Source: Candidatus Woesearchaeota archaeon
Lineage (GTDB): Archaea; Nanobdellota; Nanobdellia; Woesearchaeales; ARS49
Direction of reading: 5' to 3'
Assembly (NCBI GenBank): GCA_019323135.1
Contig: JAHWHT010000001.1
Location: 1 to 44,806, forward strand
Length of the DNA stretch: 44,806 bases
Part shown: positions 22,704 through 41,983 of the stretch, piece after piece
How positions within the stretch are numbered: the first letter of the stretch is position 1
Layout of the letters: every line of letters starts with the position of its first letter
Notes under the pieces: model-generated
What the model was told of the DNA's origin: nothing
Seen by the model: the letters and a program-made list of their open reading frames with translations, nothing else
Database searches by the model: none
Position numbers and translations under genes: made by a program

Positions 22704-22867
22704 TGGGCTGGTAGTTCAATCCGGTAGAACGCTCGGCTGGCAGCCGAGAGGCTGCGGGTTCAAATGTGAGGGACTGCACCCTACACGTACTGGCGTACGG
22801 TCAGACGCGAGGTCTGATGGGACTCAGTCGATAATGTGATCCCTCCCTGAAAGTCCCGCCCAGTCCA
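22704..22867 (+). tRNA. tRNA-Ala(GGC) with a 90-nt intron in the T-loop (59/60)
   Basis: Full cloverleaf by hand: acceptor GGGCTGG/CCAGTCC with G3:U70, anticodon loop CTGGCAG (GGC at 22738-22740). T-stem GCGGG...CCCGC is interrupted after TTCAAA. Confidence 0.85.
22764..22853 (+). repeat. Structured T-loop intron, copy 1 of a conserved ~90-nt element
   Basis: hBHBh' geometry. T-stem, then the 3' bulge AGT, the 4-bp helix TTCA/TGAA, the 5' bulge AAT, and the inner helix GTGAGGGA/TCCCTCC. About 88% identical to 39444-39532. Confidence 0.8.
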
Positions 22868-24879: not shown

Positions 24880-25044
24880 GGCGGCGTAGCTTAGCCTGGT
24901 ATAGTACTGCGCTCATGAATGCTTTTCTTGAGCGATGAGGCAGATGCCTATGATTAAGAAAGCAGTGCAACGCAGGGGTCCCGTGTTCAAATGTGTTCGA
25001 GAGGATTCAACTCCCTTCGGTCGTTGAAAGTCACGGCGCCGCCA
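24880..25044 (+). tRNA. tRNA(CAT) (elongator Met-like; G1:C72) with two introns
   Basis: Acceptor GGCGGCG/CGCCGCC. Anticodon CAT at 24914-24916. A ~52-nt insertion lies in or next to the anticodon loop (about 24918-24969; junction unresolved to +/-2 nt). A 39-nt T-loop intron sits at 24992-25030 with the same TTCA/TGAA plus AAT/AGT bulge geometry. Confidence 0.72.
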
Positions 25045-25056
25045 CTATTTTTAAAA

Positions 25057-25545
25057 ATGAGCTACTACATAATCATCAGAGGACCATTAGGTGTTGGCAA
25101 GTCTACAGTAGCTAAAAAGCTAGCAAAACAGTTGAACGCAGAATATATATCAATAGACGAGCTTCTAAAAAATCAAAAATTAGATGTAATTGAGGGAGAA
25201 TGCATACCTTTGAAAAATTTCATAAAAGTGATTGATACTGTACTGCCTGAAGTAAAAAAACATCTAAAAAACAAAATTGTGGTTTTTGACGGCAATTTTT
25301 ATCATAAAGAGCAAATCGATTATCTTGTTAGACACCTAGACACGCCGAATTATGCTTTTACATTAACTGCACCAATACACGTTTGCTTGGAAAGAGACAC
25401 TGCACGAGAAAAAACTCTTGGAGAAGAAGCCGCAAAAGCAGTGCACAATCTGGTCATGAGAGTTGATTACGGAACTCAAATCAAGACAGAAGGAAAGACT
25501 GCAGATGATGTAGTCAAAGAAATTCTCTTTAACCTTCCAAAATAA
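25057..25545 (+). CDS. P-loop NTPase/kinase-like protein
   Basis: Trimmed to MSYYIIIRGPLGVGKST (Walker A); the longer track ORF starts inside the tRNA gene. Confidence 0.6.
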   Translation: MSYYIIIRGPLGVGKSTVAKKLAKQLNAEYISIDELLKNQKLDVIEGECIPLKNFIKVIDTVLPEVKKHLKNKIVVFDGNFYHKEQIDYLVRHLDTPNYAFTLTAPIHVCLERDTAREKTLGEEAAKAVHNLVMRVDYGTQIKTEGKTADDVVKEILFNLPK

Positions 25546-25560: not shown

Positions 25561-25584
25561 ACTCACATGTTTTCATACTTCTAT

Positions 25585-25756
25585 GCCACCGTGGCACAAC
25601 CTGGTACTGCGCAGGCCTGGAACAACCGGTTACGCTCCGTTGATGCGCAAAGTGCGACATTCGCTTCGCGAAGTCCCGCGCGCTCACTTCGTGAGCACTT
25701 GGTTGAAGAAAGCCTGTTTCCTTCGGGATATCCCGGTTCAAATCCGGGCGGTGGCG
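25585..25756 (+). tRNA. tRNA-Ser(GGA) with an ~88-nt anticodon-loop intron
   Basis: Acceptor GCCACCG/CGGTGGC and a 3-bp D-stem. Anticodon stem CAGGC/GCCTG, loop CTGGAA|intron|A (GGA at 25619-25621; intron about 25623-25710). Long variable arm TCC-TTCG-GGA. T-arm CCCGG TTCAAAT CCGGG. Confidence 0.78.
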
Positions 25757-25828
25757 TATTCTATATAGCGCAGTGTTGTTTGCTAAATTTAGAAAGCTTT
25801 AAATACTCGCAAACACAGTACTATAGTA

Positions 25829-26845
25829 ATGCAAACTATACAAATAAGGCTAACAAAAGAATTAGTAAATAAGTCCCAAAAACTAGTGGATAGAGGACTT
25901 TATTCAAACAAATCAGAAGTTTTTAGAGATGCAATCAGAAGACTTACATTTAATGAAGAACTCACTCTGGATAATAAAAGAAATTTTAACATAATTTTTA
26001 CAGCAGATTTGCATGGAAATGTACAACAATATAACAAGTTATTTCAAAAAGCGTATTCTGATTGTACCGACGCAATTATAATCGGAGGAGACATTGCACC
26101 TAAAGACCCAAAAAATAGAACAATAAAAGGTCAAAAAACATTTCTTGAAAAAGAATTATTTCCTCGCATAAAAGAATTTAATAATAATAACAAAAAAAGA
26201 CAACACTCTTGTCCAATTTATATTATGCTAGGAAACGATGATTATAGATCCAATATTCCACTTCTAAAAAAGAATGAGAAAACAATAGGTTTTATACCAA
26301 TTCATAATAAATGCATTAAATTACATGAAGATTTTAAAATTGCAGGGTATTCTTATGTGCCATTAACACCTTTTGTTCATAAGGATTGGGAAAAATTGGA
26401 TCTTTCTGATGAAACAGAAACAAAATTGCGTAAAGATATCCGACTTAATGGAAATAAAGCACGAGGCAATGGTTTTGTTGATGTTAAATTCAATTTAAAA
26501 TGTAGAAAATCTACAATTGAAAAAGATTTAAAAAAATTATTGCGCAGTTCAAGTGAAAAAATTCTTTTGGTTTCTCATGCGCCCCCACATAATACCGTTC
26601 TCGATATGATTAATGCTTATACTCACGTAGGTAGTGCGGCAATAAGAAAATTAATTGAAGAAAAACAACCATTCATGACACTCCATGGTCACATCCATGA
26701 GACTGTAGATGTTTCAGGAAATTTCAAATCCACGATAGGCAAAACAATTTCAGTATGTTCAGGAAATGATCATAGATATGATTCTCTTGCCATAATAAAA
26801 TTCAATCTATATAATCCTGAAAAAGCTATCCGAGAACTTATTTGA
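25829..26845 (+). CDS. Ribbon-helix-helix (CopG-like) domain fused to calcineurin-like metallophosphoesterase
   Basis: 338 aa. The N-terminal MQTIQIRLTKELVNKSQKLVDRGLYSNKSEVFRDAIRRL is an RHH. Metallophosphoesterase (MPE) motifs DLHGN, GGDIAP, GNDD, SHAPPH and HGHIHE follow. Confidence 0.7.
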   Translation: MQTIQIRLTKELVNKSQKLVDRGLYSNKSEVFRDAIRRLTFNEELTLDNKRNFNIIFTADLHGNVQQYNKLFQKAYSDCTDAIIIGGDIAPKDPKNRTIKGQKTFLEKELFPRIKEFNNNNKKRQHSCPIYIMLGNDDYRSNIPLLKKNEKTIGFIPIHNKCIKLHEDFKIAGYSYVPLTPFVHKDWEKLDLSDETETKLRKDIRLNGNKARGNGFVDVKFNLKCRKSTIEKDLKKLLRSSSEKILLVSHAPPHNTVLDMINAYTHVGSAAIRKLIEEKQPFMTLHGHIHETVDVSGNFKSTIGKTISVCSGNDHRYDSLAIIKFNLYNPEKAIRELI

Positions 26846-39350: not shown

Positions 39351-39546
39351 GGGCCCGTAGCTCAGCTTGGTTAGAGCGCTGGTCTTATATGACCACGTTT
39401 TAAACACAACTCGTCTAAGCGAGCCAGAGGTCCTGGGTTCAAACGTAAGGGACTGCACCCTATACGTACTGGCGTACGGTCAGACAAAAAGTCTGACGGG
39501 ACTCAGTCGATAATGTGATCCCTTACTGAAAGTCCCAGCGGGCCCA
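39351..39546 (+). tRNA. tRNA-Ile(TAT) with two introns (32 nt at 37/38; 89 nt at 59/60)
   Basis: Acceptor GGGCCCG/CGGGCCC. Anticodon stem CTGGT/GCCAG, anticodon TAT at 39386-39388. The canonical intron (39390-39421) has a BHB: CTTA/TAAG helix with bulges TAT and CGA. The T-loop intron is at 39444-39532. Confidence 0.85.
39444..39532 (+). repeat. Structured T-loop intron, copy 2 of the conserved ~90-nt element
   Basis: Near-identical to 22764-22853. Perfect inner helix GTAAGGGA/TCCCTTAC. Internal hairpins CGTAC-TGGC-GTACG and GTCAGAC-AAAAA-GTCTGAC. Confidence 0.8.

Positions 39547-40402: not shown

Positions 40403-41983
<1,581 letters not shown>

What the first reader, a model, noticed from the sequence alone, without database searches (positions are those of the whole stretch)
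22764..22853. Conserved ~90-nt structured intron inserted at the same T-loop site (59/60) of two different tRNAs
tRNA-Ala(GGC) and tRNA-Ile(TAT) (39444-39532) are 16.7 kb apart. Both carry near-identical introns of 90 and 89 nt at the same T-loop position.

Both show an exact hBHBh' splice motif:
- The T-stem as outer helix.
- A 3-nt bulge AGT.
- A 4-bp helix TTCA/TGAA.
- A 3-nt bulge AAT or AAC.
- An inner helix.

The differences between the copies are structured:
- The inner helix has a compensatory change (G-C in Ala versus A-T in Ile).
- A mismatch in Ala (T.C) is a T-A pair in Ile.
- The internal hairpin TCAGAC-N5-GTCTGA keeps its stem while its loop is fully replaced (GCGAG versus AAAAA).

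This pattern suggests either recent intron transposition between tRNA genes or an intron-derived RNA under structural selection. Such an RNA might be a stable circular intron or a guide RNA. The element is too small to encode a protein.
Basis: partly seen in the sequence, partly recalled or inferred. Interest (0 to 1): 0.7.

Follow-up and report, generated by a model that had tools for sequence, protein, structure and literature searches.

The report
Mobile T-loop introns in Woesearchaeota tRNAs
Two tRNA genes of an uncultured DPANN archaeon carry near-identical 89-base protein-spliced introns at the same T-loop position; they belong to an undescribed structured intron family found in at least seven kinds of tRNA gene, a new example of a known archaeal phenomenon rather than a new kind of element.

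Summary
tRNA-Ala(GGC) (22705-22867) and tRNA-Ile(UAU) (39351-39546) each carry an 89-nt intron between tRNA positions 59 and 60 (22765-22853 and 39444-39532). The copies are 88.8% identical. Each sits in a strict 3-4-3 bulge-helix-bulge (BHB) motif built from the T-stem and T-loop. Removing them in silico gives clean cloverleaf tRNAs.

The window is a whole contig of a Candidatus Woesearchaeota MAG. The Ala locus is base-identical in six independent assemblies, so it is not an assembly artefact.

The same intron family occurs at 59/60 in Pro(UGG), Ala(UGC), Gly(CCC) and a Ser-like gene of related genomes. A diverged copy sits in the orthologous Ala(GGC) gene of another MAG. Nine base pairs show compensatory changes, while one hairpin (CGUAC-UGGC-GUACG) never varies.

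About 40% of tRNA genes in this clade carry a 59/60 intron. Orthologous genes carry the long form, a short form, an unrelated family, or no intron. Copies in different tRNAs are far more alike (89-98%) than orthologous copies (66%). This fits intron transposition or homogenisation, as described for Thermoproteales.

Introns at 59/60 are already known in the DPANN archaeon ARMAN-2. Whether the conserved core has a function is untested. Verdict: new member of a known kind, moderate interest.

The parts
22705..22867 (+). tRNA-Ala(GGC) gene. Exons are 22705-22764 and 22854-22867, including discriminator A. It has the G3:U70 pair.
   Evidence: Sequence read. Acceptor and T-stem pairing found by the scan. 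ARAGORN calls tRNA-Ala(ggc) after in-silico splicing.
22765..22853 (+). 89-nt BHB intron at tRNA position 59/60 (family A, long form).
   Evidence: Covariance model R1 scores it 122.8 bits. It is identical in six independent assemblies.
22759..22765 (+). 5' half of the BHB motif. T-loop bases UUCA (22759-22762) form the 4-bp central helix. The 3-nt bulge AAU is 22763-22765. Cleavage is inferred between 22764 and 22765.
   Evidence: Fold. Pair counts. T-loop base 57 covaries with the intron base across 24 introns.
22848..22854 (+). 3' half of the BHB motif. UGAA (22848-22851) pairs with the T-loop UUCA. The 3-nt bulge AGU is 22852-22854. Cleavage is inferred between 22853 and 22854.
22766..22778 (+). 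5' strand of the inner helix P1 (GUGAGGGA) and its extension (UGCA). It pairs with 22835-22847.
   Evidence: RNAalifold consensus. Three pairs in this helix show compensatory changes.
22835..22847 (+). 3' strand of P1 and its extension (UGUG-A-UCCCUCCC).
22786..22799 (+). Hairpin P3, CGUAC-UGGC-GUACG. Its stem-loop is identical in 8 of the 9 family-A copies, including the diverged orthologue L025. The ninth, L006, has one change, in the closing pair.
   Evidence: The L025 copy was reached through a neighbouring protein, so it is free of DNA-seed bias.
22800..22818 (+). Hairpin P4, GUCAGAC-loop-GUCUGAU. The stem is kept through three compensatory pairs. The loop varies in sequence and length (5-14 nt).
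39351..39546 (+). tRNA-Ile(UAU) gene with two introns: a canonical 37/38 intron at about 39390-39421 (32 nt) and the T-loop intron.
39444..39532 (+). 89-nt BHB intron at 59/60 (family A). It is 88.8% identical to the Ala copy. P3 is 39465-39478 and P4 is 39479-39497.
24880..25044 (+). tRNA-Met(CAT) gene. It has a 52-nt canonical intron (about 24918-24969) and a 39-nt 59/60 intron (24992-25030) of a different sequence family in the same BHB frame. It shows that 59/60 is a general intron site in this genome.
   Evidence: Weak R1 hit. Sequence. Scan. ARAGORN call after splicing.

Best explanation
These are protein-spliced archaeal tRNA introns of the bulge-helix-bulge (BHB) type. They sit between tRNA positions 59 and 60 and belong to one sequence family, which I call family A.

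How splicing is expected to work:
- In the precursor tRNA the T-stem is the outer helix.
- T-loop bases U54-U55-C56-R57 pair with the intron's 3' YGAA to form the 4-bp central helix.
- A58, A59 and the first intron base form one 3-nt bulge. The last two intron bases and U60 form the other.
- The intron's own stem P1 is the inner helix.
- The splicing endonuclease EndA should cut after the second base of each bulge.
- An RtcB-type ligase should then join A59 to U60 and probably circularise the intron.
- Only after splicing can the 7-nt T-loop form.

Architecture. The long form is P1 plus an apical module of about 58-65 nt with two hairpins: P3, which is invariant, and P4, whose stem is conserved and whose loop is free to vary. 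Short forms keep P1 and the BHB motif but lack the module.

Evolution. The family moves between, or is homogenised among, tRNA genes of a Woesearchaeota lineage. It always lands at the same site, because every tRNA offers the same T-arm sequence that the intron's 3' end pairs with.

What is shown and what is inferred:
- Shown from sequence: the motif, the restored tRNAs, the covariation, the multi-gene and multi-genome distribution, and the turnover at orthologous loci.
- Inferred from known archaeal tRNA splicing: cleavage by EndA, ligation and circularisation.
- Unknown: the route of movement, whether reverse splicing plus reverse transcription or DNA-level gene conversion.
For: The splice motif:
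- Both window copies fold into a strict 3-4-3 BHB motif.
- The structure is 97.7% paired across nine copies. Nine pairs show compensatory changes, and 0 of 500 shuffles reach this. Sliding the 3' partners by 1-3 columns drops pairing to 26-43%.
- Across 24 introns at 59/60 (23, plus the L022 copy), T-loop base 57 (A or G) is matched by the intron base (U or C) in 17 of 18 and 6 of 6 cases.
- In-silico splicing gives tRNA-Ala(ggc), tRNA-Ile(tat) and tRNA-Met(cat) in ARAGORN.

Distribution of family A at 59/60:
- Found in Ala(GGC), Ile(UAU), Pro(UGG), Ala(UGC), Gly(CCC) and a Ser-like gene.
- A diverged copy sits in the orthologous Ala(GGC) gene of GCA_014729555.1.

Similarity pattern:
- Copies in different tRNAs are 88.8-97.8% identical. 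The orthologous Ala(GGC) copies are 65.6% identical.
- Similarity between copies stops at the splice sites; the T-stems differ.

Turnover at orthologous loci:
- tRNA-Ile(UAU) exons are identical in the window, L005 and L018. The 59/60 intron is family A in the first two and an unrelated 35-nt intron in L018. It is a 33-nt mini in L019.
- tRNA-Ala(GGC) carries family A (window, L025), a 30-nt mini sharing the 5' UGUGAGGG (L024), no T-loop intron (L026) or an unrelated 74-nt intron (L028).
- That 74-nt intron is 88% identical to the 59/60 intron of tRNA-Val in the same assembly. This is a second, independent case of one family in two tRNAs of one genome.

Frequency: about 19 of 49 tRNA genes in loci reached through protein neighbours, plus the window, carry a 59/60 intron.

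Precedent:
- A 59/60 intron of the DPANN archaeon ARMAN-2 is cleaved in vitro by its EndA (PMC3239211).
- Similar introns in different tRNA species are the basis of the 'intron transposition' proposal for Thermoproteales (PMC4090602 and PMC4033280, citing Fujishima et al. 2010).
Against: - No RNA data, so splicing at these sites is inferred.
- No EndA or RtcB gene lies in the window or in any fetched locus (and the gene tables). The enzyme type is therefore unknown.
- Most family-A copies were found with exact 20-21-nt seeds. This inflates the apparent conservation of those two stretches.
- The relatedness of some host genomes (L001, L002, L006, L007) to the window genome could not be measured. 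Part of the paralogue-versus-orthologue contrast could simply reflect that L025 is the most distant genome.
- Strong purifying selection on a functional RNA could also keep paralogous copies alike without recent movement.
Confidence: 0.8

Rival explanations
1. The conserved core of the intron is a functional RNA. It could be a stable, probably circular, small RNA released from several precursor tRNAs, or a cis-acting element that controls folding or processing of the precursor. On this view purifying selection, not recent movement, explains why the copies are so alike. This is not exclusive of mobility.
For: - Between the orthologous Ala(GGC) copies (65.6% identical overall), hairpin P3 (14 of 14) and both strands of the P1 extension (5 of 5 each) are unchanged.
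- In the same comparison the P4 stem is rewritten through three compensatory pairs.
- Between L001 and L002 the canonical intron of the same tRNA-Pro gene is unalignable, while the T-loop intron differs at 2 of 89 positions.
- Variation is concentrated in the P4 loop and the 3' single-stranded stretch. That stretch is partly deleted in L006.
Against: - No Rfam match even at E up to 10.
- No conserved C/D boxes.
- No perfect antisense match of 11 nt or more in the window, rRNAs included.
- The module is dispensable. Orthologous and paralogous genes work with short 59/60 introns that lack it, or with no intron.
- P3 has no covariation, so only its sequence, not its structure, is supported.
- The invariance of P3 rests on one seed-independent copy.
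Confidence: 0.3
2. The long form arose at the DNA level. A small mobile element of about 58 nt inserted into the apical loop of a pre-existing short hairpin intron. The direct repeat GGGACU on both sides of the module would be a target-site duplication.
For: - GGGACT occurs at alignment columns 17-22 and 75-80, flanking the module.
- Short introns with homologous P1 stems exist at the same site (L019, L024).
- L022 also keeps the P1 extension, with only CCAAAA where the module would be.
Against: - The module was never seen outside a 59/60 intron. Model R1 was run on about 310 kb of related DNA, and two seed scans of viral contigs gave only chance hits.
- All long copies share the same flanks, so the whole intron, not the module, is the unit that spreads.
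- The repeat is degenerate in L025 and L001. Both of its halves lie in predicted helices, which could explain the resemblance.
- The short forms have different end points, which fits independent deletions better.
Confidence: 0.12
3. The introns are old and inherited vertically in each tRNA gene, with no movement between genes.
For: The orthologous Ala(GGC) genes of the window and L025 both carry family A. At least that copy may therefore be old.
Against: - Copies in different tRNAs are 89-98% identical against 66% for the orthologous pair.
- Orthologous genes with identical exons carry unrelated introns or none.
- Window tRNA-Ala(UGC), Val and Glu lack the intron that their orthologues carry.
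Confidence: 0.07
4. The feature is an artefact or a pair of pseudogenes: an assembly duplication, or dead tRNA genes carrying junk insertions.
For: None found. Standard tRNA finders do miss both genes.
Against: - The locus is identical in six independent assemblies.
- Exons are fully conserved across genomes while the introns change.
- The identity elements are intact, and the spliced products are clean cloverleaf tRNAs.
- The intron's 3' end changes to match the host T-loop (UUCG with CGAA).
Confidence: 0.02

Closest known systems
Paralogous ('transposed') BHB introns of Thermoproteales tRNA genes (Fujishima et al. 2010, as summarised in PMC4090602 and PMC4033280)
   Same: - Protein-spliced BHB introns.
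- Very similar intron sequences at the same position in tRNA genes of different specificity.
- Interpreted as intron transposition and recent intron gain.
   Different: - The host is a DPANN (Woesearchaeota) lineage, not a crenarchaeote.
- One site (59/60) dominates.
- The family is long (89-96 nt), with a two-hairpin core supported by covariation and short derivatives that lack it.
- Closely related genomes show replacement by other families at the same site.
59/60 T-loop introns of Candidatus Micrarchaeum (ARMAN-2): pre-tRNA-Cys(GCA) and pre-tRNA-Pro(GGG) (PMC3239211)
   Same: - A DPANN archaeon, the same intron position, and a BHB motif built on the T-arm.
- The tRNA-Cys intron was cleaved in vitro by the organism's EndA.
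- ARMAN-2 also uses tRNA-Ile(UAU).
   Different: - The ARMAN-2 tRNA-Cys intron is 13 nt with a relaxed motif.
- No conserved multi-gene family or structured core is mentioned in the passages of PMC3239211 that I read.
- The EndA type of the present lineage is unknown.
Box C/D guide RNA inside the tRNA-Trp intron of Euryarchaeota
   Same: A roughly 100-nt BHB intron that carries a functional small RNA released by tRNA splicing.
   Different: - No conserved C or D boxes and no guide complementarity were found here.
- The intron is in the T-loop, not the anticodon loop.
- It is present in many tRNA genes rather than one.
tRNA gene disruption in a natural Caldiarchaeum population (PMC3293823)
   Same: - Differences in intron content at one tRNA locus among close relatives.
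- tRNA fragments lying nearby (compare locus L007).
- Read as snapshots of intron gain.
   Different: There a 1.8-kb element with a recombinase gene is implicated. No such element or recombinase was seen next to the loci examined here.
Metazoan tRNA intronic circular RNAs, tricRNAs (PMC4536317)
   Same: Excised tRNA introns that persist as stable circles. This is a model for what the long intron might become.
   Different: They are eukaryotic and sit at the canonical position. Nothing here shows that the intron persists.

Membership tests
Archaeal BHB (EndA-spliced) tRNA intron | Two 3-nt bulges on opposite strands, separated by a 4-bp helix and flanked by helices, at the exon-intron junctions | tested here: met
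   - Minimum-free-energy folds.
- Pair counts with shuffle and slide controls.
- Covariation of T-loop base 57 with the intron base in 23 of 24 introns at 59/60.
Archaeal BHB (EndA-spliced) tRNA intron | Removing the intron at the bulge sites restores a standard tRNA | tested here: met
   ARAGORN calls tRNA-Ala(ggc), Ile(tat) and Met(cat) after in-silico splicing. The T-loop becomes UUCAAAU.
Archaeal BHB (EndA-spliced) tRNA intron | The host encodes a splicing endonuclease able to act at non-canonical positions, and an RtcB-type ligase | tested here: inconclusive
   No EndA or RtcB domain was found among 40 window ORFs scanned with Pfam or in the gene tables of the fetched loci. The rest of the genome could not be searched.
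Archaeal BHB (EndA-spliced) tRNA intron | Spliced junction and excised intron observed in RNA | not testable with these tools
Paralogous ('transposed') tRNA intron group in the sense of Fujishima et al. 2010 | Closely similar introns at the same position in tRNA genes of different specificity | tested here: met
   Family A occurs at 59/60 in Ala(GGC), Ile(UAU), Pro(UGG), Ala(UGC), Gly(CCC) and a Ser-like gene. A second family occurs in Ala(GGC) and Val(UAC) of one assembly.
Paralogous ('transposed') tRNA intron group in the sense of Fujishima et al. 2010 | Intron relationships disagree with host-gene relationships, and presence or absence differs at orthologous loci | tested here: met
   Identity matrix. 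Orthologous Ile and Ala(GGC) loci compared. Host phylogeny was only roughly gauged, from 16S, 23S and neighbour-protein identities.
Intron-encoded box C/D guide RNA | Conserved C (RUGAUGA) and D (CUGA) boxes with a k-turn | tested here: not met
   - No box is conserved across the alignment.
- The 3' CUGA is only the complement of the T-loop. It becomes UCGA or GAGA in L004 and L006.
- No Rfam C/D family matches at E up to 10.
Intron-encoded box C/D guide RNA | A guide stretch complementary to rRNA or tRNA | tested here: not met
   No perfect complement of 11 nt or more to the 16S, the 23S or any plus-strand sequence of the window. G-U pairs and gapped matches were not tried.
Self-splicing (group I or II) or homing-endonuclease intron | A ribozyme core or an endonuclease ORF | tested here: not met
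   The intron is 89 nt, has no ORF and has no Rfam match.

The most novel reading that the evidence does not exclude
The invariant core (hairpin P3 CGUAC-UGGC-GUACG, the P1 extension, and the P4 stem kept by compensatory changes) is a functional RNA module. It would be either a stable circular small RNA made from many precursor tRNAs, or the recognition element that lets the excised intron re-insert into other T-loops. The second would give the first sequence handle on how archaeal BHB introns move.
Probability: 0.25. Interest if true: 0.75.

Novelty: new member of a known kind. Interest (0 to 1): 0.45.

Why it matters
How archaeal tRNA genes gain protein-spliced introns is unresolved. [quoted passage not shown] This Woesearchaeota clade supplies such snapshots. 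Genomes with about 96% 16S identity and identical tRNA exons carry a long intron, a short intron, an unrelated intron or none at the same T-loop site. At least two intron families have each spread to several tRNA genes.

There is also a practical point. These introns hide tRNA genes from standard finders. ARAGORN and Rfam missed 4 of the 9 tRNA genes in this window. This may bear on the 'missing' tRNAs reported for Woesearchaeales genomes (bioRxiv 10.64898/2026.05.13.725050).

If the conserved core proves functional, it would be a new intron-borne RNA.

Tried and rejected
- Rfam. Gathering thresholds on the whole window, then E up to 10 on the locus and E up to 5 on 1-40400. Nothing matches the intron; only partial tRNA hits appear.
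- Box C/D reading. Rejected because no box is conserved across copies.
- Antisense guide. No perfect complement of 11 nt or more in the window.
- Further family-A copies in the window. None found by pattern with 3 mismatches or by covariance model with filters off. That search instead revealed the unrelated 39-nt intron of tRNA-Met.
- Viral origin. Two scans of viral contigs gave only chance hits in unrelated coding DNA.
- EndA type.
- MFE pairing of ACUGG with CUCAGU inside the core. Rejected because that 3' stretch changes in L004 and is deleted in L006. The RNAalifold three-way model fits all copies.
- Alternative pairing of the second GGGA with the 3' strand of P1 (a possible switch). By eye on the alignment it is not kept in L025, so I dropped it.
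- Fujishima et al. 2010 could not be read. It is cited only through reviews.

Limits of the searches:
- The single genome-collection scan and the single metagenome scan used exact 21-nt and 20-nt seeds, so diverged copies were missed.
- The metagenome scan also failed to return one JGI contig that does hold the seed (compare), so it is not exhaustive.

Full report
**What is there**

The window is a complete 44,806-bp contig of a 'Candidatus Woesearchaeota archaeon' MAG. The best ScpA match is 100% identical, carries that NCBI name, and comes from a contig of exactly 44,806 bp. The window holds an archaeal 16S-tRNA-Ala(UGC)-23S operon and ordinary housekeeping genes.

At 22705-22867 lies a tRNA-Ala(GGC) gene with the G3:U70 pair. 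At 39351-39546 lies a tRNA-Ile(UAU) gene with a 32-nt canonical intron. Each gene is interrupted in the T-loop by an 89-nt insert, at 22765-22853 and 39444-39532. The two inserts align without gaps and are 88.8% identical. ARAGORN and Rfam miss both genes. After the inserts are removed in silico, ARAGORN calls clean tRNA-Ala(ggc) and tRNA-Ile(tat).

Starting at 22764 would leave a 6-nt T-loop.

**The splice motif**

Folding each T-arm with its insert gives a strict 3-4-3 BHB motif:
- The T-stem is the outer helix.
- T-loop UUCA pairs with the intron's 3' UGAA.
- The bulges are AAU or AAC on the 5' side and AGU on the 3' side.
- An 8-bp inner helix follows.

Across 24 introns at 59/60:
- All six genes with G at T-loop position 57 have CGAA at the intron's 3' end.
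- Seventeen of the eighteen genes with A at position 57 have UGAA.

The helix is therefore kept by covariation between exon and intron.

**It is a family**

One exact 21-nt seed in the species-representative genomes found the same intron in tRNA-Pro(UGG) of another Woesearchaeota MAG and of a contig binned as Methanosarcinales. One 20-nt seed in JGI metagenomes found it in:
- tRNA-Ile(UAU);
- tRNA-Ala(UGC), inside a 16S-23S spacer;
- tRNA-Gly(CCC);
- a Ser-like gene.

I then reached orthologous loci through neighbouring proteins, which avoids seed bias. This found a diverged 94-nt copy in the orthologous tRNA-Ala(GGC) of GCA_014729555.1.

The nine distinct copies support this structure:
- P1, the inner helix, plus a 4-bp extension.
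- A weak 3-bp P2.
- Hairpin P3 (CGUAC-UGGC-GUACG).
- Hairpin P4, a 7-bp stem with a loop of 5-14 nt.

The structure is 97.7% paired. Nine pairs show compensatory changes, and 0 of 500 shuffles reach this. Sliding the 3' partners drops pairing to 26-43%. P1 and P4 have three compensatory pairs each. P3 has no compensatory changes, so only its sequence is supported. P2 is weak.

No Rfam family matches the intron.

**Not an artefact**

The Ala locus with its intron is base-identical in six independent assemblies. Two short-read contigs end at the same point inside the intron, as expected for a repeated sequence.

**The wider picture**

Position 59/60 is a general intron site in this clade.
- The window itself has a third case. 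tRNA-Met(CAT) at 24880-25044 has a 39-nt 59/60 intron of unrelated sequence.
- In loci reached through protein neighbours, plus the window, about 19 of 49 tRNA genes carry a 59/60 intron of 16-96 nt.
- Several short ones share family A's P1 and splice motif but have a small loop in place of the core module. Examples are UGUAAGGGAC-AAAACA-GUCUCUAACUGAAAG in L019 and UGUGAGGGGC-UUCAA-GCCCUUUAUUGAAAG in L024.
- The L022 intron also keeps the P1 extension.

**Turnover**

tRNA-Ile(UAU) exons are identical in the window, L005 and L018. These organisms share about 96-99% 16S identity. The 59/60 intron nevertheless differs:
- family A in the window and L005;
- an unrelated 35-nt intron in L018;
- a 33-nt mini in L019;
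- a further family in L020.

The orthologous tRNA-Ala(GGC) gene carries:
- family A in the window and L025;
- a mini in L024;
- no T-loop intron in L026, which instead appears to have inserts in the D-loop and anticodon loop (by eye);
- an unrelated 74-nt intron in L028.

That 74-nt intron is 88% identical to the 59/60 intron of tRNA-Val in the same assembly. Window tRNA-Val, tRNA-Glu and tRNA-Ala(UGC) lack T-loop introns that their orthologues carry.

Family-A copies in different tRNAs are 88.8-97.8% identical, whereas the orthologous Ala(GGC) pair is 65.6% identical. Similarity between copies ends at the splice sites.

Together these results point to movement or homogenisation of whole introns among T-loops, with frequent loss and shortening.

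**How it most likely works**

Established archaeal tRNA splicing gives the inferred mechanism. EndA cuts after the second base of each bulge. An RtcB-type ligase joins A59 to U60 and circularises the intron. The T-loop can form only afterwards.

The site specificity has a simple basis. The intron's 3' YGAA pairs with the near-universal U54-U55-C56-R57, so any tRNA can present a valid motif. The route of spread is unknown.

**Is the core functional?**

Points for:
- In the seed-independent L025 copy, P3 (14 of 14) and both strands of the P1 extension (5 of 5 each) are unchanged, while the P4 stem is rewritten by compensatory changes.
- In L001 versus L002, the canonical intron of the same gene has diverged beyond alignment, while the T-loop intron differs at 2 of 89 positions.

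Points against:
- The module is dispensable in orthologous and paralogous genes.
- There are no C/D boxes, no antisense target in the window and no RNA evidence.

I rate a function for the excised RNA or its core at about 0.25-0.3.

**Comparison with what is known**

- Introns at 59/60 with BHB motifs are described in the DPANN archaeon ARMAN-2, and one was cleaved in vitro by its EndA (PMC3239211).
- Similar introns in different tRNA species are the basis of the intron-transposition proposal for Thermoproteales (PMC4090602 and PMC4033280, citing Fujishima et al. 2010).
- Heavy tRNA gene disruption in DPANN lineages, and failure to predict full tRNA sets in some newly sequenced DPANN genomes, is noted in PMC5829648, which sampled one Woesearchaeota genome.
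- Full-text searches turned up no description of this family, or of a T-loop intron hotspot in Woesearchaeota.

**Verdict**

It is a new intron family of a known kind, with useful evolutionary snapshots and an unexplained conserved core.

**Limits**

- Seed bias affects eight of the nine copies.
- Host phylogeny was gauged only roughly.
- The EndA type is unknown.
- There are no transcript data.

Noticed in passing
window 41134-41243: The 16S rRNA gene carries a 110-nt insert in a BHB-like frame (UUAG/CUAA helix, bulges AUA and UUA, inner helix UCGAGUAA/UUACUCGA). It splits the universal sequence GGATTAGAT|ACCCGAGTAGTCC, which to my knowledge is the binding site of the common 806R amplicon primer. 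Standard V4 amplicon surveys might therefore miss this organism. Relatives differ in this region (L008).
   Followed up: partly
window 24880-25044: tRNA-Met(CAT) has two introns: a 52-nt canonical one and a 39-nt 59/60 intron of a different family (UGUGUUCGAGAGG...GUUGAAAG). Similar introns sit in tRNA-Ile of L018 and L020 and tRNA-Val of L018-L020. ARAGORN and Rfam miss the gene, and an ORF call (24991-25545) overlaps it.
   Followed up: yes
window 25585-25756: tRNA-Ser(GGA) has an 88-nt intron at the canonical position. Standard finders miss it, and a spurious 101-aa ORF (25567-25872) overlaps it.
   Followed up: partly
window 39351-39546: The genome uses tRNA-Ile with anticodon UAU. To my knowledge this is unusual in Archaea. 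ARMAN-2 has it too (PMC3239211). From my own knowledge, it suggests AUA is decoded without the agmatidine system. I did not look for the tiaS gene.
   Followed up: no
L007, minus strand 3205-2844: A 17-nt 5' fragment of a tRNA-Ser gene (GCCGCCGTGGCACAACC) has its own promoter-like box. It is followed by an intact tRNA-Ser(UGA), and then by a 3' piece made of a 10-bp hairpin, a T-arm with the family-A intron, and an acceptor strand complementary to the 5' fragment. This may be a nested, split or decayed gene. It resembles the fragment pattern reported for Caldiarchaeum (PMC3293823).
   Followed up: partly
L028 590-679 and L021 802-963 (both from GCA_038884515.1): A second, unrelated long 59/60 intron family (74 nt, 88% identical) sits in tRNA-Ala(GGC) and tRNA-Val(UAC) of one MAG. 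Its GGTTAACCGTTTACCGT-like motif also recurs in an intergenic stretch upstream in L021. Short ACGTC-type repeats follow the Ala gene in L028.
   Followed up: partly
L020 (15378-13788 and 4922-1029, minus strand): One 15.6-kb contig holds two tRNA-Val, Gly, Ile, Glu clusters. The paralogous Ile and Val genes carry different 59/60 introns (31 versus 39 nt, and 33 versus 16 nt).
   Followed up: partly
L016 and L017, position 1: Two independent Logan contigs both begin at the same base inside the Ala intron (TGCACCC...). This is the pattern expected when an assembler breaks at a repeated sequence.
   Followed up: no
L013 (JGI Ga0180431_10012684): This JGI contig contains the 20-nt seed used for the metagenome scan, yet the scan did not return it. 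That collection scan is therefore not exhaustive.
   Followed up: no
L025 11951-12712; L018 3319-3783; L019 1152-1613; L022 2972-3436: A free-standing LAGLIDADG-type ORF lies near the tRNA region in L025. Genes with the 23S_rRNA_IVP domain lie next to the rRNA operons of three relatives. These hint at further insertions in the rRNA genes.
   Followed up: no
L002 (CAZXEZ010000076.1): A 4.8-kb contig binned as 'uncultured Methanosarcinales' carries the Woesearchaeota-type tRNA-Pro with the family-A intron. A neighbouring protein is 88.5% identical to that of the Woesearchaeota MAG L001. The contig is probably mis-binned.
   Followed up: partly
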